Part shown: in pieces, positions 36,478 to 50,105 of the stretch | Position numbering within the stretch: the first letter of the stretch is position 1 | Layout of the letters: each line of letters starts with the position of its first letter | Origin: an uncultured Candidatus Saccharibacteria bacterium | GTDB taxonomy: Bacteria; Patescibacteriota; Doudnabacteria; UBA920 | Length of the DNA: 64,000 nt | Direction: 5' to 3' | NCBI GenBank assembly: GCA_964416765.1 | Contig: CAYQEU010000001.1 | Coordinates: 130,541 to 194,540, forward strand | Made by a program: the position numbers and the translations under genes | Notes under the pieces: model-generated | The model's input: the letters and a program-made list of their open reading frames with translations, nothing else | Told to the model about the DNA's origin: nothing | Database searches by the model: none

Positions 36478-37521
36478 ATGCAATGGACTAAAGACCCCGC
36501 AACCAGAGTTATCGCAAAAGTCATTTTGGCCGGCCTAGGCCTGGCTTTTCTGTGGGTGACCCGCGAGATAGTTATTATTTTGCTGTTAGCCGTGGTTTTT
36601 GCTTCCGCCATGGAACCCTTGGTTGGGTACCTGCACATTAAAAGAGTACCCCGGGCGGTAAGTGTTTTGGCGGTTTACGTACTAGTGCTAGCAATTATAG
36701 GAGCCGTGTTGGCCCTGCTTGCCCCAATCATAGTCCAGCAGTTCCAGCTGCTTAGCCAAAACTTGCCGGAGTATAGCTCGAGTTTGGAAAGCCAGTACCC
36801 GGCTATTAAGAGTGTGTTGGGTAACGCCAATCTGACCGATATTATTTCGCAGGCGTTTTCCGCCTTGACCAACAACTCCAGCGTGTATAGCCAGACATTG
36901 GGCGTAGTAAATGTATTCTTTAGCGTCATCACGGTGCTGGTCGTTTCATTCTATCTGGTCGCACAGCAGCAGGGGATGATTGATTTTGTCCACTCAGTCG
37001 TGCCAAAACCCCAGCGGAAATTTACCCTCGACCTGATCCGTAAGATCCAAACCCGCATGGGGTATTGGATTATCGGGCAAATAGTCCTTAGTCTTTCCAT
37101 CTTCGTGCTAACTTTCATCGGCCTTACCGCGCTTGGCGTTAAGTACGCTTTGTTCCTCGCCCTGCTGGCGGGGATAATGGAAATCGTCCCTTATATTGGG
37201 CCGTTCCTGTCGGCTATACCAGCGGTGTTCTTTGCCCTGGTCCAGAGCCCTCCTTTGGCAATCCTTGTAATAGTTCTGTACATTGTGGTTCAAAAATTGG
37301 AAGGATATATTTTGGTGCCGAAGATCATGCAGCGGGCTACCGGTACGTCACCGCTTTTGGTGCTCATAGCGCTCCTGGTCGGATTCAAACTGGTAGGAGT
37401 CCTCGGGTTGTTGCTCGCCATTCCAGTTGTCAGTGTCATCACCTTGCTTATAGATGAATTTTCCAACAACTACCCCTCCACTACAGCCGTGGATATAGAC
37501 GAGCCTAAAGTATTACCATAA
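36478..37521 (+). CDS. AI-2E family transporter (second paralog)
   Basis: 347 aa, 8 TM, same architecture as 7325..8359. Confidence 0.65.
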   Translation: MQWTKDPATRVIAKVILAGLGLAFLWVTREIVIILLLAVVFASAMEPLVGYLHIKRVPRAVSVLAVYVLVLAIIGAVLALLAPIIVQQFQLLSQNLPEYSSSLESQYPAIKSVLGNANLTDIISQAFSALTNNSSVYSQTLGVVNVFFSVITVLVVSFYLVAQQQGMIDFVHSVVPKPQRKFTLDLIRKIQTRMGYWIIGQIVLSLSIFVLTFIGLTALGVKYALFLALLAGIMEIVPYIGPFLSAIPAVFFALVQSPPLAILVIVLYIVVQKLEGYILVPKIMQRATGTSPLLVLIALLVGFKLVGVLGLLLAIPVVSVITLLIDEFSNNYPSTTAVDIDEPKVLP

Positions 37522-39008
37522 TGCCAAAAAACTTTTACATCACAACCACATTGCCTTATGTTAATGCCGATCCCCATATCGGTTTTGCTTTAGAAATTAT
37601 CCAAACCGATGTCATCGCGCGGTATCACGAAGGAATGGGGGAGAACGTTTTCTTCAACACCGGCACTGACGAGCATGGCTTAAAGATATACCGCAAAGCT
37701 GAGGAAGCGGGACTCGACCCCCAGGCTTATGTTGATGAGTACGCGCAAAAGTTTGACCGTCTGAAAACAGCGTTGAATTTGAGCTACAACCATTTCATCC
37801 GCACTACCGACGAGCATCATGTTGCGGCGGCGCAGGAATTTTGGAAACGCTGTGAAGCGGCGGGTGACGTCTATAAGAAAACATACCAAGTTAAATATTG
37901 CGTGGGCTGCGAACTGGAAAAAACCGATTCGGAAATTGAAGACGGACGCTGTAAAATCCATCCCCACCTCGAATTGGAATTAATTGATGAAGAAAATTAT
38001 TTTTTCCGTTTCTCGAAATATGGACCGAAGCTGTTGGAATTTTATCAAGCCAACCCGGATTTTGTAGTTCCGGACTTCCGTTTCCATGAGATTAAATCAT
38101 TTGTGGAAGCTGGCCTGCAGGATTTTAGTATCTCCCGGCTAAAACAAAAAATGCCGTGGGGTGTGCCCGTTCCGGGGGATGAAAACCAGGTCATGTACGT
38201 TTGGTTCGACGCCTTGGTTAACTATATTTCCACCTTAGGGTGGCCCAATGATGTAGCTAACTTTATTGGCTTTTGGGGAACTCAGGAAAACCGCTTAGGG
38301 GTACAAACGGCTGGTAAAGACAACTTGCGCCAACAGTCAGCCATGTGGCAGGCGATGCTTATGTCCGCGGGGCTCCCGAATTCCAAACAAATTTTGATCC
38401 ACGGATTCATTACAAGTGGGGGCCAGAAGATGAGTAAGAGTTTGGGTAATGTCATTGACCCGTATGCCGTGTTGACTGATTTGCAGGAAAAGGGGCTCAG
38501 TGAGAGCCAAGCAACTGATTCACTTCGCTATTATTTATTGCGCGAAATTTCCACGTTCGAAGACGGCGATTTCACTTGGGACCGGTTCAAAGATAGCTAC
38601 ACCGCCAATCTCGTGAACGGGATTGGTAACCTGACCAGCCGCATCATGAAGATGGCGATTAACGCTGAAATGGAAATTAACCTCGATAGCTTCGATGACG
38701 AGCCGGCTCATGAGGCTGATAAGGATTATCGGGACTTGCTGGAAAAGTACGAACTGCAAAAGTGCGCGGATTTAATCTGGGACCATATTGCTTGGTGCGA
38801 CCGTTTCATCCAGGAAAAAGAACCCTTCAAAGTAGTGAAAACGGACCCGGAAAAAGCCCGCGAAGACATCATGATTCTTTTGTTGGCTTTGCGGCGCATC
38901 GCGATATGGCTCGCTCCGTTCCTGCCCCAGACTAGTGACCAGATTATTAATGTTTTGAAGAATCCGGTTTTGGAAAATATCCCCCGGTTGTTCCCTCGAA
39001 TTGAATGA
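37521..39008 (+). CDS. metG: methionine--tRNA ligase (short form)
   Basis: HIGH-type motif PHIGF, KMSKS, Zn knuckle CVGCELEK..C. Confidence 0.9.
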   Translation: MPKNFYITTTLPYVNADPHIGFALEIIQTDVIARYHEGMGENVFFNTGTDEHGLKIYRKAEEAGLDPQAYVDEYAQKFDRLKTALNLSYNHFIRTTDEHHVAAAQEFWKRCEAAGDVYKKTYQVKYCVGCELEKTDSEIEDGRCKIHPHLELELIDEENYFFRFSKYGPKLLEFYQANPDFVVPDFRFHEIKSFVEAGLQDFSISRLKQKMPWGVPVPGDENQVMYVWFDALVNYISTLGWPNDVANFIGFWGTQENRLGVQTAGKDNLRQQSAMWQAMLMSAGLPNSKQILIHGFITSGGQKMSKSLGNVIDPYAVLTDLQEKGLSESQATDSLRYYLLREISTFEDGDFTWDRFKDSYTANLVNGIGNLTSRIMKMAINAEMEINLDSFDDEPAHEADKDYRDLLEKYELQKCADLIWDHIAWCDRFIQEKEPFKVVKTDPEKAREDIMILLLALRRIAIWLAPFLPQTSDQIINVLKNPVLENIPRLFPRIE

Positions 39009-39859
39009 AATTTCTTGATACTCACACCCATATAAATTTAAGGGCGTTTCGTGATGACGCGCACGAAGCCATTAGGAGAGCGCTCGACGCGGATGTTGCT
39101 ATCGTAAACGTCGGCACACAAATAGACACGAGCCGGCAGGCAGTAAACTTGCTGGAAGATTTTCCCATGAATGTCTACGCGGCCGTCGGGTTGCATCCGG
39201 TCCATACTTTTTCACACGACTTTGAAGATGAGGAAGAAGTAAAGTTTAAAACCCGGGAGGAGGGGTTTAACTATGAGGATTACAAAGCGCTTGCCAACAC
39301 CCCCCGCGTGGTAGGGATTGGGGAGTGCGGGTTGGATTATTACCGTTTGCCGCAAGACCGCGACCACGTGGAAATAAAGCGTATGCAACTGGAGGCCTTC
39401 CTCCCGCAGGTAAAATTGGCGCGGGAGCTTGATAAAGCTTTGTGCATCCATTGTCGTCCTTCTGAGGGAACCATGGACGCTTATGACGAAATCGCTGAGC
39501 TGATGAAGCAGGTCAAAAAAGACCAGCCTGATTTTCGGTTTGAAATCCATTGCTACACGGGTGACCTGCCGACAGCATTGAAATTTGTTGAAATTGGCGC
39601 TTACATGGGGATTAACGGTATTATTACCTTTGACAAGACCGGCAGGAGCGAAAGTGTGGTTAAAGGGATCCCGCTGGAAAATATTATTCTGGAAACAGAC
39701 GCGCCTTACCTCACCCCCGTGCCGCATAGAGGGAAGCGCAATGAGCCAAGTTACCTACCCTTAGTCGCCGAAAAAATTGCCGAGTGGAAAGGCGAAAGCG
39801 CTGACCGGGTAGCGGAAGTTACCACTGCAAACGCAAAGAAATTATTTAAGCTGGAATGA
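39005..39859 (+). CDS. tatD: TatD family metal-dependent hydrolase
   Basis: DTHTHIN start motif, TIM-barrel TatD pattern with conserved H/E/D. Confidence 0.85.
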   Translation: MKFLDTHTHINLRAFRDDAHEAIRRALDADVAIVNVGTQIDTSRQAVNLLEDFPMNVYAAVGLHPVHTFSHDFEDEEEVKFKTREEGFNYEDYKALANTPRVVGIGECGLDYYRLPQDRDHVEIKRMQLEAFLPQVKLARELDKALCIHCRPSEGTMDAYDEIAELMKQVKKDQPDFRFEIHCYTGDLPTALKFVEIGAYMGINGIITFDKTGRSESVVKGIPLENIILETDAPYLTPVPHRGKRNEPSYLPLVAEKIAEWKGESADRVAEVTTANAKKLFKLE

Positions 39860-42771
39860 AGTCTTACAACCCCAAACACATTGAAAAGAAGTGGCAGGAG
39901 TACTGGGAAGAGCACCAGACTTTCCACGCCAGTGATGAGAGCGGCAAACCGAAGAAATATATCCTGGTAGAATTCCCTTATCCTTCGGGCGAAGGATTGC
40001 ATATGGGGCATCTCCGCCCATATGTTGCCGGGGATGTTTACAGCCGTTACTGGCGGCTGCGGGGCCAAGACGTTATGTATCCCATGGGATGGGATGCTTT
40101 CGGCTTGCCGGCGGAAAATTACGCGATAAAAAACAATGTCCACCCGCGCGTGTCCACGGCGAAGAACATCGCCAACGCGAAACGCCAGATTCAAAGCTGG
40201 GGCCTGGGCTTTGACTGGGACAGGGAAGTAAATACTACTGATCCGGAATTTTACAAATGGACCCAGTGGATTTTTTTGCAGTTATATAAAGCCGGGTTGG
40301 CCTATGAAGCCACAGGGCTAATTAACTGGTGTCCAAAAGACAAGACTGGCTTGGCTAATGAAGAAGTTATTGATGGTAAGTGCGACCGTTGCGGCACGTT
40401 AGTAGAAAAAAAGGAACTGCGCCAATGGTATTTGAAGATTACCGCCTATGCCGAAAAATTGCTCCAAGGCCTGGAGAGCTTGCCGGAATGGCCGGAAGCA
40501 GTGAAGCTCCAGCAGGCTAACTGGATTGGAAAAAGCGTTGGCGCGGAAATAGACTTCAAACTCAACCAGAAAAACAATTATGTCATTCTGCCTGGCTACA
40601 GCAGTGATGAAACAGAAAATTTTTATCCATGGCTGGCGGAAGAGTTGTCGGCGGATGGTTCGGAAGCCCAAACAGTAGTATATAAATCGGCTACAGAACA
40701 CGCCGAACCCGAAATAATAGAGGATTTAACTGGCCGGGTTTCGCTGGACGAAGATACCGTTTTGGTAGGCCATAGCCTGGGCGGAGTCATGGCTATGAAG
40801 TTGTTGGAAAAATCCGAAGTTCAAATAGCTAAGCTAGTTCTGGTAGCAAGTTTTGCCAATCCTAAATTCAAGGATAAAGCCAGGGCTTTTGAAGATAAAC
40901 TTTCATGGAATTTTGATTTTGAAAAGATTAAGCATAACGTCCGCGAAATAATTGTCCTGAGTGATAACACTGACCATATAGTGCCCGAAGATTCAGCAGT
41001 TGAGCTTTCGGAGAAGTTAAATGCCCGCTTGATAAGATTTGATGCCGTAGCTCCTCATATTAAAGGAGTGGAAGAGCCGGAAGTTTTGTCAGCCGTAGCG
41101 AACCGTATTAAAGTGTTTACCACGAGGCCGGATACTATTTTCGGCGCCACCTATTTAGTCGTCGCTCCCGAACATCCGGTAATCGAAACTTTGGCCGCTG
41201 AAATTACAAACTGGGACGAAGTCCAGAGCTATATTGATCAGGCGAAAGCCCAGCAGGAACAACAACGCCTTGAAGAGGGGAAAGAAAAAACCGGAGTTGA
41301 GTTAAAGGGAATAAAGGCAGTTAATCCAGCTAATGGACAGGAAATTTCTGTTTGGACGGCAGACTATGTTTTGGCCAACTACGGGACTGGCGCAATAATG
41401 GCCGTACCCGCCCACGATGAACGCGACTTTGAATTTGCCCAGAAATTCGGATTGCCCGTCACTAAAGTAATTGAATCCGCGGAAGCGGAAACTTTTTTTG
41501 CGGGTGCAGGAAAACTTATAGAATCCGGTCAGTTCACTGGAATGCATTCGGAAGACGCTCTACCGCAAATGGCGAAGAAATTCGGAAAGCTGGCGGTTAA
41601 ATACAAACTTCGGGATTGGGTCTTTTCACGCCAGCGTTACTGGGGAGAGCCAATACCACTGGTACATTGCGATAAGTGTGGAATTGTACCGGTTCCTGAC
41701 AATCAACTCCCAGTAGTATTGCCCGAAGTGGAAAAATATGAACCAACCGGAACAGGGGAGTCACCCCTAGCGGCTATTTCAGAATGGGTTAATACAACCT
41801 GCCCCAACTGTGCGGGCCCCGCTAAGCGCGAAACCAACACCATGCCCCAATGGGCGGGCAGTTCTTGGTATTATTTGCGTTATACAGACCCGCATAATGA
41901 TGAGCAGTTTGCCGCGGCGGAAAAGTTAAAGCAGTGGCTGCCGGTGGACGTGTATTTTGGCGGCATGGAACATACCACGCTTCATTTGCTATATTCACGA
42001 TTTTGGCACCTTGCCCTTTATGACCAGGGCCTGGTACCAACCCCCGAACCTTACACCAAGCGCGTACCTCATGGGATAATTTTGGCGGCTGACGGGGAAA
42101 AGATGTCCAAGAGCCGCGGCAACGTGGTCAACCCAGATGATATTGTAAACCAATTCGGTGCCGACACGCTCCGCATGTATGAATTGTTCTTGGGCCCGCA
42201 CGAAGCTACTGTGTCATGGAATGACCAGGGGATTATCGGGGTCAGCCGATTTTATGAAAGAGTTTGGAAATGGATTCATGAGCAGGCGAAGAACCCTGCG
42301 GAATCCGACAGCCTTGGGGCAAAGCGCTTACTCCATCGGTTAATGAAGAAAATTGGCGACGATATTGAAGGTTTCAGGTTCAATACCGCCGTTTCCACTT
42401 TTATGGATTTCCATAACAAAGTTAAGGACCAGCAAGTTAGCTTGGATTTCCTCAAAACATTTTTGATTTTGCTTTATCCAATTGCCCCGCACATTAGCGA
42501 GGAATTGAATGAAATTATAGGCGGACAGGCGTCCTTACAAAACGCGACGTGGCCCGAATATGACCCAACCATGCTTCAAAGTGACGAGTGGAATATCGTC
42601 ATTCAGGTTAACGGTAAAGTCAAAGGAAAGCTTACGGTCCCGGCGAACATCCCTGAAGCCGAAATAGAACAGCAAGTTTTGGCAATGGAAAACATTATAG
42701 ACACCTTGGGCGGACAAACACCGCAGCGCGTGGTTCATGTGCCGGGCAAATTAATCAACATTGTTCTGTAA
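39856..42771 (+). CDS. leuS: leucine--tRNA ligase carrying an inserted alpha/beta-hydrolase (Ser_hydrolase, PF06821-like) domain
   Basis: HMGH, KMSKS, TTRPDT and GTGAIMAVPAHD editing-domain motifs present; extra ~180 aa (aa 237-418, nt 40564-41109) with YVILPGY...PWL and GHSLGG nucleophile elbow. Confidence 0.9.
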   Translation: MKSYNPKHIEKKWQEYWEEHQTFHASDESGKPKKYILVEFPYPSGEGLHMGHLRPYVAGDVYSRYWRLRGQDVMYPMGWDAFGLPAENYAIKNNVHPRVSTAKNIANAKRQIQSWGLGFDWDREVNTTDPEFYKWTQWIFLQLYKAGLAYEATGLINWCPKDKTGLANEEVIDGKCDRCGTLVEKKELRQWYLKITAYAEKLLQGLESLPEWPEAVKLQQANWIGKSVGAEIDFKLNQKNNYVILPGYSSDETENFYPWLAEELSADGSEAQTVVYKSATEHAEPEIIEDLTGRVSLDEDTVLVGHSLGGVMAMKLLEKSEVQIAKLVLVASFANPKFKDKARAFEDKLSWNFDFEKIKHNVREIIVLSDNTDHIVPEDSAVELSEKLNARLIRFDAVAPHIKGVEEPEVLSAVANRIKVFTTRPDTIFGATYLVVAPEHPVIETLAAEITNWDEVQSYIDQAKAQQEQQRLEEGKEKTGVELKGIKAVNPANGQEISVWTADYVLANYGTGAIMAVPAHDERDFEFAQKFGLPVTKVIESAEAETFFAGAGKLIESGQFTGMHSEDALPQMAKKFGKLAVKYKLRDWVFSRQRYWGEPIPLVHCDKCGIVPVPDNQLPVVLPEVEKYEPTGTGESPLAAISEWVNTTCPNCAGPAKRETNTMPQWAGSSWYYLRYTDPHNDEQFAAAEKLKQWLPVDVYFGGMEHTTLHLLYSRFWHLALYDQGLVPTPEPYTKRVPHGIILAADGEKMSKSRGNVVNPDDIVNQFGADTLRMYELFLGPHEATVSWNDQGIIGVSRFYERVWKWIHEQAKNPAESDSLGAKRLLHRLMKKIGDDIEGFRFNTAVSTFMDFHNKVKDQQVSLDFLKTFLILLYPIAPHISEELNEIIGGQASLQNATWPEYDPTMLQSDEWNIVIQVNGKVKGKLTVPANIPEAEIEQQVLAMENIIDTLGGQTPQRVVHVPGKLINIVL

Positions 42772-43442
42772 TGGAAGTCATTAAATACCGTAAAACAGAC
42801 CATAAGAAAATTTTAGCGATCGCCGCGAAAGCATTGAAAGAAGGGAAGACCGTGGTCTACCCCACGGACACTTCATACGCCATTGCCTGTGACATCACCA
42901 ATGCCAAAGCGCGTGCCAGGTTCTATAAGATTAAAGAGCGTTCCCCGAAACAGCCCGTGCATTTGATTTTGCCTAGTTTGGCTTTCGCGCGAGGCATAGC
43001 CATATGGAACAAAACCGCGAACATCCTTGCCCGGAAATTTTGGCCGGGGCCAATTTCTCTCGTTTTACCAATCAAACTGAAGGGTAAACTCCCGGAATAT
43101 TTGAAGATTGTCAGTGCCGGCACGGGCACCGTGGGGGTGAGGCGACCGGACAATTCGGTAGCCGCCGATTTGGCGAGATATTTGGGCAAACCCATACCCG
43201 CCACCAGTGCCAATCCCTCGGCCCACTTATCCGGTGGATTTGATAGCTACTCTTCGAGGGACGTAATCATCCAGTTTTCCAAGCAGAAATATAAACCTGA
43301 TATAATAATAGACGCGGGGAGGCTGCCCAAGCGCAAGCCTTCAACCATGCTGAAAATCAATGGCCAGGCGTGGCAAATTCTGCGACCCGGCCCCATAAGC
43401 GAAAAACAAATACGAAATGCCCTCAATGAACCACAAACTTAG
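42771..43442 (+). CDS. tsaC: L-threonylcarbamoyladenylate synthase (YrdC/Sua5 family)
   Basis: 223 aa; YPTDTSYAI and K..P..LI motif of YrdC domain. Confidence 0.75.
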   Translation: MEVIKYRKTDHKKILAIAAKALKEGKTVVYPTDTSYAIACDITNAKARARFYKIKERSPKQPVHLILPSLAFARGIAIWNKTANILARKFWPGPISLVLPIKLKGKLPEYLKIVSAGTGTVGVRRPDNSVAADLARYLGKPIPATSANPSAHLSGGFDSYSSRDVIIQFSKQKYKPDIIIDAGRLPKRKPSTMLKINGQAWQILRPGPISEKQIRNALNEPQT

Positions 43443-44571
43443 GTTGCCCCATGATTTGATCGGGACGATCCGGCAGGAAATCCGGGAACTTTACGCCAGC
43501 GTTGCGTTTGCTGATATGGCCACGGCACTGGCGGTTTTGTTTGAACCGATTATTTTGTATAAAATTCTTGGCCTGAGCATAATCCAGATCTTTTTGTTCA
43601 TGGCTTCCATTTACGCCATTCAGGCTGTGCTTTTGCCGCTTGGCGCTAAAATTGGGGCCCGTCTTGGCTACATGCACGCAATTTTTTTCAGCATTCCTTT
43701 CATGGTGCTGTACTGGATGTTGCTTTACGGCGCCCAGGTTGATTTTAATTTATTGCTCCTGGCTCCAGTTGTCTATGGAATTGAAAAAGCCTTGTTCTGG
43801 CCTTCTTTCCACGCCACGGCCGCGCGATACATCAATGGCAAGCCCAGCAACAAGCACGATATCCTCTACGGCATGGTCATGGTGATGCGCGTACTGGGTC
43901 CCGCGATCGGCGGCGTGGTGGGGTATTACCTTGGTTTGCGCGTAGTGTTGCTCCTGGCCGCTGCGATGTACCTGACTTCAGTTATGCCTCTGCTCGTAAG
44001 CAAAGAAATTTATGCCCCCACCAGCTATAGTTTTAGCGACACCTGGGAAATCTATAAAAAATACCCCCGTCGGTTCATGAGTTACATGGGGCTCGGTGAG
44101 GAGATAATAATTGTCACGCTGTGGCCCATCTTGATTTATTTGATCTTGGGAAACGTGGCATATACTGGTTTAGTAGTTTCGGTGAGCGCTATCGTAACCG
44201 CAACATTGCTTTTAGCCGTGAAACGCATCAAGGGGATTCAAAACCAGCTGCAACTAATAAAGATTGGGACATTTGTTTACTCTTTCGTTAATTTGGCGCG
44301 TCTGGCAGTATGGGGCTTTTACGGGGTGTTTATGGTGGATGCACTAGGCCGCAGCACCAAAGAACTTATCACCATCCCACTAGCCACGCTCACTTATGAA
44401 CGTTCGGAAAGAAATGGTATTTTGGCTTACGTGGTATTTTTCCAGCAGAGCGCGGCGTTAGGGAAATTTTTGGCCGCCACCCTGGCCGTGGTGGTTTTCG
44501 GCCTTACGGGAAGTCTTGTGGCGGTGTTTATTTTGGCCGGAGCCTTTACTTTGTTGTACATGCTAGCCTAA
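43417..44571 (+). CDS. MFS-type membrane transporter-like protein
   Basis: 384 aa, about 12 TM segments; start ambiguous, overlaps tsaC end. Confidence 0.5.
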   Translation: MPSMNHKLRLPHDLIGTIRQEIRELYASVAFADMATALAVLFEPIILYKILGLSIIQIFLFMASIYAIQAVLLPLGAKIGARLGYMHAIFFSIPFMVLYWMLLYGAQVDFNLLLLAPVVYGIEKALFWPSFHATAARYINGKPSNKHDILYGMVMVMRVLGPAIGGVVGYYLGLRVVLLLAAAMYLTSVMPLLVSKEIYAPTSYSFSDTWEIYKKYPRRFMSYMGLGEEIIIVTLWPILIYLILGNVAYTGLVVSVSAIVTATLLLAVKRIKGIQNQLQLIKIGTFVYSFVNLARLAVWGFYGVFMVDALGRSTKELITIPLATLTYERSERNGILAYVVFFQQSAALGKFLAATLAVVVFGLTGSLVAVFILAGAFTLLYMLA

Positions 44572-49936: not shown

Positions 49937-50105
49937 GGTAGGAAGGTCTGGGGGAAGCACAAAGCCCCCCGCCAGCGGCAACTTTCGTTGCCCACTATCC
50001 CTTTCGAGATAGGACCTTCCTAGGGCTCTGGACGGAGAGCTTAATACTAGGAAGGTTTTAACCATGCCCGGGTCGTTAAGACACGCGGGTTTAGGTCTTA
50101 AATTG
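49936..50105. ncRNA. candidate structured RNA element (cloverleaf-like 4-way junction plus downstream hairpins); identity unknown
   Basis: 10-bp closing stem TAGGAAGGTC/GACCTTCCTA enclosing three hairpins (GGGGG/CCCCC, GGCAAC/GTTGCC with UUUC loop, CTATC/GATAG); second copy of TAGGAAGGT downstream allows alternative pairing; inside a 475-bp convergent gap. Confidence 0.3.

What the first reader, a model, noticed from the sequence alone, without database searches (positions are those of the whole stretch)
40564..41109. Leucyl-tRNA synthetase with an inserted PF06821-type serine-hydrolase domain next to an intact editing domain
leuS (971 aa) is about 180 aa longer than a compact bacterial LeuRS. 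The extra block lies between the catalytic-core strand (KSVGAEIDFKL) and the TTRPDT motif that opens CP1. It has the hallmarks of the RBBP9/YdeN Ser_hydrolase family: N-terminal YVILPGY...PWL, nucleophile elbow GHSLGG, and later Asp/His candidates. The editing-domain signatures (TTRPDT, GTGAIMAVPAHDERD) are retained, so this is an added module, not a replacement. No intein splice-junction residues are present. A hydrolase domain fused in cis next to the tRNA-editing site is not, to my knowledge, a described LeuRS architecture. It could act on misactivated or mischarged substrates or have a moonlighting role.
Basis: partly seen in the sequence, partly recalled or inferred. Interest (0 to 1): 0.7.

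Follow-up and report, generated by a model that had tools for sequence, protein, structure and literature searches.

The report
Serine hydrolase nested inside leucyl-tRNA synthetase
The enzyme that loads leucine onto tRNA in this tiny-genome bacterium carries a complete second enzyme (a serine hydrolase) spliced into its proofreading domain, and the same hydrolase is repeatedly found inside or right next to this synthetase in related microbes, which suggests an undescribed helper of translation quality control.

Summary
leuS (39856..42771, 971 aa) has about 180 extra residues (aa 237-418). They match PF06821 above Pfam's cutoff and fold like YdeN and RBBP9 (TM 0.81-0.84). The domain splits CP1 just before TTRPDT, and all LeuRS catalytic and editing motifs are intact. 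It is neither a chimera nor an intein.

Of the 120 nearest LeuRS homologues (Patescibacteria), 88 carry the domain at this site. Ser307 and His401 are invariant and residue 373 is always acidic.

The same subfamily also occurs at two other LeuRS sites and in ValRS. Separate genes abut insert-less leuS, including one in the window's own synteny. One archaeal-type leuS operon also encodes a YbaK-family editing domain. None of 40 control leuS loci has a hydrolase gene nearby. Rare copies sit in SecA, UvrB, EngA and TsaD/Kae1.

My best reading is a LeuRS-dedicated accessory hydrolase acting on an aminoacyl ester, thioester or anhydride, for extra proofreading or clean-up. RBBP9 chemistry fits this. 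The function is inferred, not shown. No published description was found.

The parts
39856..42771 (+). leuS, 971 aa: a bacterial-type leucyl-tRNA synthetase with a nested hydrolase. It lacks the leucine-specific domain (Tth residues 583-636 have no counterpart).
   Evidence: ORF. TIGR00396 scores 1012.6 bits against a cutoff of 548.4. Alignment to Tth LeuRS 1h3n. Foldseek top hits are LeuRS 2bte, 7nu8 and 5omw.
39856..40563 (+). N-terminal half of the catalytic Rossmann fold plus the ZN-1 region. It includes HMGH (40000-40011) and ends with the first CP1 strand GAEIDFKL (40540-40563).
   Evidence: HMGH is conserved in relatives with and without the insert.
40564..41109 (+). Inserted YdeN/RBBP9-type alpha/beta serine hydrolase domain (aa 237-418). 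It splits Pfam PF13603 (CP1) between about model positions 19 and 20.
   Evidence: PF06821 scores 45 bits against a cutoff of 22. PDB sequence hits to 1uxo, 2qs9 and 9fcr. The domain model has pLDDT 96.9; Foldseek gives 7oex TM 0.81-0.82 and 1uxo TM 0.84.
40774..40776 (+). Ser307, the nucleophile in the GHSLGG elbow (40768-40785).
   Evidence: Aligns with RBBP9 Ser75. Ser in 88/88 embedded domains.
40972..40974 (+). Asp373, the catalytic acid candidate (NTDHIVP). A second conserved Asp370 lies at 40963-40965.
   Evidence: Aligns with RBBP9 Asp138. Asp in 78/88 and Glu in 10/88. Site-C copies keep only the Asp370 equivalent.
41056..41058 (+). His401, the catalytic base (APHI).
   Evidence: Aligns with RBBP9 His165. 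His in 88/88 and invariant in alignment A4.
40867..40932 (+). Subfamily-specific pocket or lid segment: F338-x-D340-x-x-R343 followed by (S/D)WNFDFEKIK (aa 350-359).
   Evidence: Nearly invariant in embedded copies. The region corresponds to the RBBP9 substrate-pocket loop containing Tyr99, Leu103 and Glu108.
41110..41595 (+). Remainder of the CP1 editing domain, with an intact Thr-rich motif TTRPDT (41119-41136) and GTGAIMAVPAHDERD (41383-41427).
   Evidence: PF13603 scores 192.9 bits. The motifs are invariant in 88 insert-bearing and 32 insert-less relatives.
41596..42768 (+). C-terminal half of the catalytic core, the anticodon-binding domain and the C-terminal domain. It includes RQRYWGEPIP (41629-41658; site C of relatives lies just after it) and KMSKS (42100-42114).
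37521..44571 (+). Tightly packed gene string with overlapping stops and starts: metG (37521-39008), tatD (39005-39859), leuS, sua5/yrdC-like (42771-43442) and MFS (43417-44571). Relatives L064 and L072 place a free-standing hydrolase gene between leuS and sua5.

Best explanation
The insert is a complete, catalytically competent Ser307-Asp373-His401 hydrolase of the compact YdeN/RBBP9 class. It belongs to a subfamily that is a dedicated accessory of LeuRS in Patescibacteria (CPR) and some probably archaeal lineages. The subfamily is either nested in LeuRS surface loops or encoded by a separate gene abutting leuS.

Most likely it hydrolyses a leucine-like aminoacyl ester, thioester or anhydride that carries a free alpha-amine and arises from LeuRS chemistry. 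Candidate substrates are the 3' aminoacyl end of mischarged tRNA(Leu) presented by LeuRS, a released non-cognate aminoacyl-adenylate, or an editing by-product such as an amino-acid thiolactone. On this reading it adds a proofreading or clean-up activity that works alongside the intact CP1 editing site and does not replace it.

Shown: domain identity, fold, conservation of the triad, the insertion point, intact LeuRS motifs, and the recurrent LeuRS association. Inferred: that the domain is active, the class of substrate, and the quality-control role.
For: Identity and fold.

Purifying selection on catalysis: Ser and His are invariant and the acid is retained in all 88 embedded copies, although the domains are only about 35% identical pairwise. 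The motifs are also kept in the other hosts.

Specific LeuRS link:
- The domain occupies three different LeuRS sites: A, B in P0072 and C.
- A tandem copy occurs in P0081.
- The homologous loop of ValRS also carries it.
- Of about 10 free-standing close homologues examined, six directly abut leuS, upstream or downstream, in unrelated neighbourhoods. One more shares an operon with leuS. One lies 1.3 kb away.
- 0 of 40 control insert-less leuS loci have such a hydrolase gene within about 3 kb.
- P0134 is 57% identical to the window's insert. It occupies the leuS-sua5 junction of the window's own synteny.

Link to editing: the L077 operon reads hydrolase, hydrolase, PF04073 YbaK-type aminoacyl-tRNA editing domain, Ham1, archaeal-type LeuRS.

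Chemistry: RBBP9 traps single Leu/Ile, Met, Phe, Tyr and Trp residues on its serine and needs a free alpha-amine. Its authors conclude it is likely to cleave amide, ester or thioester bonds to such amino acids (PMC8866121). It is also cited as a valacyclovir (valyl ester of a nucleoside analogue) hydrolase.
Against: There is no biochemical evidence.
- CP1 is fully intact in all 75 site-A hosts, so an extra editing activity is not obviously needed.
- The domain is strongly acidic (pI 4.7, net charge -14), as are the free leuS-adjacent copies (pI 4.8-6.0). That is unfavourable for binding tRNA unaided.
- The domain works from three different LeuRS sites and in trans, so no fixed geometry relative to the editing pocket is required.
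- Rare copies sit in SecA, UvrB, EngA and TsaD/Kae1, or are fused to NUDIX, methyltransferase, glyoxalase or inositol monophosphatase domains. The domain can therefore function without an aaRS.
- Many CPR leuS loci have no such hydrolase in the roughly 3 kb examined.
- RBBP9's alpha-amine anchor Glu108 aligns with Ala342. Only the nearby Asp340 is conserved.
Confidence: 0.45

Rival explanations
1. Substrate provisioning. The domain is a leucine-preferring aminopeptidase or esterase. It frees Leu (and Val in the ValRS hosts) from scavenged peptides and feeds the synthetic site of an amino-acid auxotroph.
For: RBBP9 is an aminopeptidase for N-terminal hydrophobic residues, and Leu/Ile adducts were trapped on it. 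The hosts are LeuRS and ValRS, which handle hydrophobic amino acids. There is a precedent: the aminotransferase domain appended to Mycoplasma penetrans MetRS supplies methionine (PMC7694997 abstract). CPR bacteria generally lack amino-acid biosynthesis (abstracts). The acidic, non-RNA-binding character fits a small-molecule enzyme.
Against: It does not explain the shared operon with a YbaK-type editing domain. It does not explain the hosts TsaD, SecA, UvrB and EngA. Free leucine diffuses, so nesting at three sites brings little obvious benefit. No peptide-transport or peptidase genes were seen consistently beside it.
Confidence: 0.2
2. Autonomous hitch-hiker. The hydrolase is an active house-cleaning esterase whose job is unrelated to LeuRS. 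Large, loop-rich, constitutively expressed housekeeping genes of reduced genomes simply tolerate it and co-express it.
For: The host range includes SecA, UvrB, EngA and TsaD/Kae1. Terminal fusions occur with NUDIX, methyltransferase, glyoxalase and inositol monophosphatase. Other guest enzymes (NUDIX, methyltransferase, HAD) occupy site B of the same LeuRS family. House-cleaning genes (Ham1, NUDIX, HD, inositol monophosphatase) recur nearby. The insert's GC3 is lower than the host gene's.
Against: LeuRS accounts for 51 of the 60 nested hosts among the best 150 library representatives, and ValRS-like hosts for 5 more. That count is inflated by vertical descent within LeuRS. There are at least three independent LeuRS sites. 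Separate genes abut leuS on either side in unrelated neighbourhoods, which loop tolerance cannot explain. The association spans bacterial-type and archaeal-type LeuRS.
Confidence: 0.25
3. Non-catalytic role. The domain serves as a structural, tRNA-positioning or regulatory appendage of CP1, and its hydrolase chemistry is vestigial.
For: Accessory domains of aaRSs often act by binding. The site-C copies lack the Asp373 equivalent.
Against: Ser307 and His401 are invariant and an acid is always present across 88 divergent copies and in all other hosts. The acidic surface is unsuited to RNA binding. The domain also exists as a free enzyme-sized protein.
Confidence: 0.05
4. Artefact or mobile protein element: an assembly chimera, a frameshift-joined neighbouring gene, or an intein.
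For: In one MAG (L001) the gene is split by a frameshift, and a fragment (P0001) is annotated as a separate hydrolase.
Against: The identical 971-aa ORF occurs on three independent contigs. 88 orthologous clusters share the junctions. There is no Hint/intein Pfam hit, and by direct reading of the sequence no Cys/Ser/Thr...His-Asn splice junction. The whole-protein AlphaFold model is confident, with a continuous CP1 fold around the insert.
Confidence: 0.01

Closest known systems
RBBP9 / YdeN family of compact serine hydrolases (Pfam PF06821; PDB 7OEX, 2QS9, 1UXO)
   Same: Same fold (TM 0.81-0.84). Same size (about 180 aa, no large cap). The Ser-Asp-His triad sits in the same positions, with a GHSxG elbow. 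RBBP9 acts on single hydrophobic aminoacyl groups that carry a free alpha-amine.
   Different: Here the domain is nested inside another enzyme instead of standing alone. Identity to the solved members is only 22-27%. The subfamily has its own F-x-D-x-x-R and WNFDFEKIK motifs. RBBP9's alpha-amine anchor Glu108 is not conserved at the aligned column. The substrate is unknown.
CP1 post-transfer editing domain of class Ia synthetases (LeuRS, IleRS, ValRS; Pfam PF13603 for LeuRS)
   Same: It is a hydrolytic module inserted into the catalytic fold of the synthetase. In the best-supported reading it acts on aminoacyl esters produced by the same enzyme.
   Different: The fold (alpha/beta-hydrolase) and mechanism (covalent Ser nucleophile) are unrelated; CP1 has no covalent acyl-enzyme intermediate (established knowledge). 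The new domain is inserted into CP1 itself, giving three nesting levels. The 2026 domain-insertion survey reported CP1 as never acting as a host (PMC13114784).
Free-standing trans-editing factors (YbaK/ProXp PF04073, AlaX, Dtd)
   Same: These are small accessory hydrolases genetically or physically coupled to one synthetase. In L077 the hydrolase shares an operon with a PF04073 protein and LeuRS. From my own knowledge, YbaK works in a synthetase-YbaK-tRNA ternary complex, which would be a model for the free leuS-adjacent copies.
   Different: There is no sequence or fold relationship. No alpha/beta-hydrolase-fold aminoacyl-tRNA editing factor turned up in the literature searched. No deacylase activity has been shown.
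Synthetases with appended metabolic enzyme domains (Mycoplasma penetrans MetRS-aminotransferase; IleRS with GNAT domain, NCBIfam NF040702)
   Same: A reduced-genome organism welds an extra enzyme to a class I synthetase. The MetRS case supplies the amino-acid substrate (NF040702 listed).
   Different: Those domains are appended, N-terminally in the MetRS case, not nested in CP1, and they belong to different enzyme classes.

Membership tests
Bacterial leucyl-tRNA synthetase (TIGR00396 leuS_bact) | Whole-protein HMM score above the curated cutoff | tested here: met
   1012.6 bits against 548.4. Best PDB matches are LeuRS 1h3n (E=5e-231) and 2bte.
Bacterial leucyl-tRNA synthetase (TIGR00396 leuS_bact) | Class I signature motifs HIGH and KMSKS | tested here: met
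   HMGH at aa 49-52 and KMSKS at aa 749-753, conserved across 120 relatives.
Bacterial leucyl-tRNA synthetase (TIGR00396 leuS_bact) | CP1 editing domain with the Thr-rich motif and the GTG...HDxRD aspartates | tested here: met
   PF13603 scores 192.9 bits. TTRPDT is aa 422-427 and GTGAIMAVPAHDERD is aa 510-524. Both are invariant with and without the insert.
Bacterial leucyl-tRNA synthetase (TIGR00396 leuS_bact) | Leucylation and editing activity | not testable with these tools
   Requires enzymology.
PF06821 Ser_hydrolase (YdeN/RBBP9) | HMM score above Pfam's gathering threshold | tested here: met
   45.0 bits for the insert alone and 40.6 bits in the whole protein, against a cutoff of 22. 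The match covers profile positions 1-154 of 172.
PF06821 Ser_hydrolase (YdeN/RBBP9) | Compact cap-less alpha/beta-hydrolase fold | tested here: met
   The domain model (pLDDT 96.9) matches 1uxo at TM 0.84 and rmsd 2.4 A, and 7oex at TM 0.81-0.82. The next fold neighbours are about 5 orders of magnitude weaker in E-value.
PF06821 Ser_hydrolase (YdeN/RBBP9) | Ser-Asp-His catalytic triad at the family's positions | tested here: met
   Ser307, Asp373 and His401 align with RBBP9 Ser75, Asp138 and His165. They are conserved in 88/88, 88/88 (78 Asp, 10 Glu) and 88/88 embedded copies.
PF06821 Ser_hydrolase (YdeN/RBBP9) | RBBP9-type alpha-amine anchor (Glu108, Ser76, Tyr99) defining aminopeptidase specificity | tested here: inconclusive
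   Glu108 aligns with Ala342, Ser76 with Leu308 and Tyr99 with Phe331. A nearly invariant Asp340 lies two residues away in a loop whose alignment is uncertain.
PF06821 Ser_hydrolase (YdeN/RBBP9) | Hydrolase activity | not testable with these tools
   Needs activity-based probe labelling or substrate assays.
Intein (Hint domain) | Hint-domain homology, an N-terminal Cys/Ser/Thr and a C-terminal His-Asn followed by Cys/Ser/Thr at the junctions | tested here: not met
   No Hint or intein family appears among the Pfam hits. The junctions read FKL|NQKNNY and AVANRI|KVFTT, with no His-Asn.
Known aminoacyl-tRNA trans/cis editing domain families (PF04073 YbaK/ProX, AlaX second additional domain, Dtd) | Sequence homology to one of these families | tested here: not met
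   None appears among the Pfam or NCBIfam hits of the window protein. The link to PF04073 is by operon only, in L077.

The most novel reading that the evidence does not exclude
An alpha/beta-hydrolase-fold serine enzyme constitutes a previously unrecognised class of aminoacyl-tRNA or aminoacyl-adenylate proofreading factor. It would be a third hydrolytic site of LeuRS (and ValRS) that uses a covalent acyl-serine intermediate. It is deployed either in cis, nested at several loops, or in trans, as a leuS-adjacent gene, across CPR bacteria and DPANN-like archaea.
Probability: 0.3. Interest if true: 0.9.

Novelty: new variant of a known kind. Interest (0 to 1): 0.74.

Why it matters
Proofreading by aminoacyl-tRNA synthetases is a textbook system, and its catalogue of editing modules (CP1, INS/YbaK, AlaX, Dtd, the ThrRS N2 domain) is regarded as essentially complete.

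A serine hydrolase that is repeatedly captured by LeuRS would matter in several ways. It occurs inside CP1, at other loops, in ValRS, or as an adjacent gene, and once in an operon with a YbaK-type domain.
- If it edits, it would add a mechanistically different module that works through a covalent acyl-enzyme.
- If it feeds leucine to the enzyme, it would be a second example of substrate provisioning by an aaRS-fused enzyme.
- Either way it shows that CP1 can itself host a domain, contrary to a recent large survey.
- It gives orphan YdeN-family hydrolases a testable physiological context.
- It shows how ultra-small CPR genomes pack accessory enzymes (hydrolase, NUDIX, methyltransferase, HAD) into the loops of essential translation proteins.

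The hypothesis can be tested directly with a recombinant protein and an S307A mutant.

Tried and rejected
- **Insert-only search of the word-indexed 5.8-billion-protein database.** It found only 11 hits and missed all embedded copies. This was a sensitivity limit, not rarity; searches corrected it.
- **Metagenome scan with a 20-sequence domain profile.** It failed because there was no conserved block. The retry with 5 sequences gave only 6 loci: four are LeuRS hosts (L058-L061). L062 and L063 are free-standing copies with no leuS on their contigs (2.2 and 4.2 kb); L062 is too short to judge.
- **Last big-database search, using the variant CP1 domain (DSVPQT type) of L064.** It returned only short fragments. 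I therefore could not test without bias whether variant-CP1 LeuRSs are always hydrolase-associated.
- **Table of CP1 type against hydrolase position.** The sample is too small and too biased for any claim.
- **Model coordinates.** They are not exposed to scripts, so the distance and orientation of Ser307 relative to the CP1 pocket or the tRNA 3' end could not be measured.
- **Whole-protein Foldseek search.** It returned only ordinary LeuRS structures.
- **Literature search on PF06821/DUF1234/YdeN.** It was swamped by the surname Ydenberg.
- **Rejected explanations.** An assembly chimera is rejected because three independent contigs and 88 orthologues share the junctions. An intein is rejected because there is no Hint homology and no splice-junction residues. 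Replacement of CP1 editing is rejected because the editing motifs are invariant. A strict requirement for placement next to the editing pocket is rejected because sites B and C and separate genes also occur.
- **Charge analysis.** I ran it hoping for an RNA-binding signature. The domain is acidic instead, and I count this against unaided tRNA binding.


Full report
**Observation.** The + strand ORF at 39856..42771 encodes a 971-aa protein. It is unambiguously a bacterial-type leucyl-tRNA synthetase: TIGR00396 scores 1012.6 bits against a cutoff of 548.4, and T. thermophilus LeuRS 1h3n matches at E=5e-231. The flagged interval 40564-41109 is exactly aa 237-418. On its own this segment scores 45.0 bits on Pfam PF06821 (Ser_hydrolase; gathering cutoff 22). 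It also matches the solved structures of B. subtilis YdeN (1uxo, E=2e-12) and human RBBP9 (2qs9/9fcr, E about 8e-9) over essentially its full length.

**Insertion point.** Alignment to T. thermophilus LeuRS breaks between Tth residues 238 and 242. That is the turn between the first two strands of CP1, seven residues before the Thr-rich editing peptide. Pfam's CP1 model PF13603 is split between about positions 19 and 20. Insert-less relatives have 15-31 residues between the anchors WIGKSxG and TTRPDT, whereas this protein and its like have 190-200. The protein also lacks the leucine-specific domain (Tth 583-636).

**Structure.** AlphaFold2 with a 120-sequence alignment gives mean pLDDT 91.4 and pTM 0.83, and the insert scores pLDDT 93-98. 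Modelled alone, the domain reaches pLDDT 96.9 and pTM 0.93. Its best structural matches are RBBP9 in complex with phenylalanine (7oex, TM 0.81-0.82) and YdeN (1uxo, TM 0.84, rmsd 2.4 A). Their E-values are about five orders of magnitude better than those of any other alpha/beta-hydrolase. No solved LeuRS contains such a domain.

**Not an artefact.** The identical protein is encoded on three independently assembled contigs, including a 681-kb NCBI contig and a Logan assembly of SRR11845619. There is no Hint or intein homology, and the junctions carry no splice residues. In one related MAG (L001) a frameshift splits the gene, which explains why a 126-aa fragment (P0001) is annotated there as a separate alpha/beta hydrolase.

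**A conserved architecture under selection.** Of the 120 best LeuRS homologues, 88 carry the hydrolase at the same site, which I call site A. Where the sources name them, these are Patescibacteria, often Candidatus Doudnabacteria. Across those 88 copies the domain is only about 35% identical pairwise. Even so, Ser307 is Ser in 88/88, His401 is His in 88/88, and position 373 is Asp in 78 and Glu in 10. These residues align with RBBP9 Ser75, Asp138 and His165. The host's HMGH, KMSKS, TTRxDT and GTG...HDxRD motifs are invariant in both insert-bearing and insert-less relatives. All 75 full-length site-A hosts have a canonical CP1. The module therefore adds to the editing site and does not replace it.

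**The hydrolase is tied to LeuRS, not to one loop.**
- An exhaustive phmmer search of the insert against 1.84 billion cluster representatives found 744 hits at E<=1e-3.
- Among the best 150, 51 are LeuRS hosts (41 at site A, 10 at site C). Site C lies after RQRYWGEPIP...CxxC, in the catalytic core downstream of CP1.
- Five more are ValRS-like hosts. In three of them the domain sits at the loop homologous to site C.
- Single examples are nested in SecA, UvrB, EngA and TsaD/Kae1. A few are terminal fusions to NUDIX, methyltransferase, glyoxalase or inositol monophosphatase domains. 73 are free-standing proteins of about 180 aa.
- P0072 carries a PF06821 domain at a third LeuRS site (site B, late in CP1), and P0081 carries two in tandem at site A.
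- A rough neighbour-joining tree groups the site-A, site-C and TsaD-embedded domains in one clade, apart from ordinary free YdeN-like proteins. The P0072, P0081 first-copy and P0053 type looks like a separate capture.

**Gene neighbourhood is the strongest evidence.** I examined the genomic context of the closest free-standing copies.
- P0134 is 57% identical to the window's insert and shares its unusual LPGY motif. It starts 2 nt after the stop codon of an insert-less 806-aa leuS. It is followed by sua5, MFS and SHMT, which is exactly the window's synteny.
- P0133, a tandem double hydrolase, occupies the same position in another relative.
- P0139, P0142 and P0144 lie 6-36 nt upstream of leuS in three unrelated neighbourhoods.
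- In L012 a hydrolase ORF ends 3 nt before the leuS ORF.
- P0159 lies 1.3 kb upstream of leuS.
- P0163 heads a tightly overlapping operon: hydrolase, hydrolase, PF04073 (YbaK-type aminoacyl-tRNA editing domain, 87.7 bits), Ham1, and an archaeal-type LeuRS (TIGR00395, 750.7 bits).
- Three copies were not near leuS (P0149, the hydrolase-NUDIX fusion P0205, and L063). Two could not be judged.
- As a control, none of 40 insert-less leuS loci has a hydrolase ORF within about 3 kb. That set holds about 15 candidate-phylum (CPR) genomes and about 25 ordinary bacteria.
- The partnership is therefore lineage-restricted, but where the subfamily exists it is overwhelmingly attached to leuS, physically or genetically.

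**Mechanism.** For this family, RBBP9's catalytic serine traps single Leu/Ile, Met, Phe, Tyr and Trp residues. The enzyme requires a free alpha-amine, and its authors conclude it is likely to cleave amide, ester or thioester bonds to hydrophobic amino acids (PMC8866121). It is also cited as a valacyclovir-activating enzyme, meaning it hydrolyses a valyl ester of a nucleoside analogue. That is the chemistry of aminoacyl-tRNA, aminoacyl-adenylate and amino-acid thiolactone hydrolysis. Taken together with the LeuRS and ValRS association and the YbaK operon, my preferred explanation (confidence about 0.45) is a LeuRS-dedicated quality-control hydrolase. It would act on a non-cognate aminoacyl ester or anhydride, or on an editing by-product, alongside CP1.

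**Evidence against this explanation.**
- CP1 is intact, so extra editing is not obviously needed.
- The domain is strongly acidic (pI 4.7, net -14; free copies pI 4.8-6.0). It probably does not bind tRNA unaided and would depend on LeuRS to present the substrate, or it acts on a small molecule.
- Three insertion sites and action in trans mean there is no fixed geometry.
- The hosts SecA, UvrB and EngA show that the domain can function without an aaRS.
- RBBP9's Glu108 alpha-amine anchor is not conserved at the aligned column, although Asp340 nearby is nearly invariant.

**Rival explanations.** The rivals are leucine provisioning by an aminopeptidase (about 0.2; precedent M. penetrans MetRS-aminotransferase), an autonomous house-cleaning hitch-hiker (about 0.25) and a non-catalytic role (about 0.05).

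**Comparison with what is known.** The parts are members of known families, and the membership tests for LeuRS and PF06821 are met. The combination was not found in the open-access literature available here. A 2026 survey of 48,551 domain-insertion events lists the LeuRS editing domain as an insertion-exclusive module with zero host events (PMC13114784). This protein is a counter-example, with three nesting levels: Rossmann fold, then CP1, then hydrolase. Public records call these proteins simply 'leucine--tRNA ligase', and occasionally 'alpha/beta fold hydrolase'.

**Verdict.** I rate this a new variant of a known kind: a synthetase with an accessory hydrolytic module of a new fold. There is about a 0.3 chance that it represents a genuinely new class of proofreading factor.

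**Limits.** The sampling of free-standing copies is small (about 12). The counts of LeuRS hosts among library hits are inflated by vertical descent. The function is entirely inferred.

Noticed in passing
Relatives P0013, P0017, P0018, P0020 (NUDIX); P0023, P0035 (methyltransferase); P0033 (HAD); P0052, P0079, P0085 and L068 4562-7435 (NUDIX only). The equivalent window position is about aa 540-555 (about 41470-41520).: A second insertion hot-spot (site B, in CP1 after 'KFGLPxxxVI') carries NUDIX, SAM-methyltransferase or HAD phosphatase domains in related LeuRSs, with or without the site-A hydrolase. This gives proteins of 940-1200 aa. The window protein has no site-B insert. Hydrolase-NUDIX (P0205) and hydrolase-methyltransferase (P0227) also exist as free two-domain proteins.
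   Followed up: partly
L064 1578-3998, L072 1587-4004, L013 2585-5644, L014 2657-5641: These LeuRSs have a variant CP1: the Thr-rich peptide reads DS(V/I)PQT instead of TTRPDT, and GTGAIMAVPAHDERD is replaced by G(T/S)G(I/V)V...(A/V)HDERD. All four are hydrolase-associated (adjacent gene or site C). However, all four were found through the hydrolase, so the correlation is untested. L064's LeuRS is otherwise 70-75% identical to the window's outside CP1, which suggests a CP1 swap.
   Followed up: partly
L077 4001-8549 (NCBI GCA_020049755.1): An operon with overlapping stops and starts: PF06821 hydrolase, a second PF06821 hydrolase, PF04073 YbaK-type aminoacyl-tRNA editing domain, Ham1 (ITPase), and archaeal-type LeuRS.
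   Followed up: partly
L015 3500-5026 (= P0172); P0152; P0179; P0251; P0168, P0194, P0197, P0216, P0238: The same hydrolase subfamily is nested inside TsaD/Kae1 (tRNA t6A synthesis), SecA (wing/scaffold region), the EngA/Der GTPase (ahead of a GTPase domain), UvrB, and ValRS. The Ser and His motifs are kept in all of them. All these hosts are large NTP-using housekeeping enzymes.
   Followed up: partly
window 49977-50097 (-): Rfam match to the LOOT RNA motif (RF03000): 70.5 bits against a gathering score of 46.4, over the full model length.
   Followed up: no
window 37521-44571 (+): metG (495 aa), tatD, leuS, sua5/yrdC-like and an MFS transporter are chained with overlapping stop and start codons (ATGA/TAATG type). 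This implies one translationally coupled operon. A t6A-pathway gene (sua5) directly follows leuS, and the hydrolase is nested in the t6A enzyme TsaD/Kae1 elsewhere.
   Followed up: no
window 40564-41109 compared with the rest of 39856-42768: GC3 of the insert is 0.41, against 0.54 for the rest of leuS (overall GC 0.43 against 0.49; window 0.485). This could reflect weaker codon selection or a different history of the segment.
   Followed up: no
L001 3387-6381 (GCA_023487095.1): In this MAG the orthologous hydrolase-bearing leuS is broken by a frameshift inside the insert. The result is a separately annotated 126-aa 'alpha/beta hydrolase' (P0001) and a 630-aa C-terminal fragment. It is either a sequencing error or a pseudogene.
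   Followed up: partly
window 40588-40599 (LPGY): The window's clade, and the free copy P0134, have Pro where most embedded copies have His in the strand-end 'LHG' motif (the oxyanion-hole region). RBBP9 likewise has Pro-Gly there (VPG).
   Followed up: no
L064 1-1007, L072 1-668, L001 6400-6993 and 9253-9669: House-cleaning enzyme genes recur around these leuS loci: Ham1/ITPase, inositol monophosphatase family, YfbR-like HD nucleotidase and NUDIX. These are the same enzyme classes found fused to the hydrolase or nested in LeuRS.
   Followed up: no
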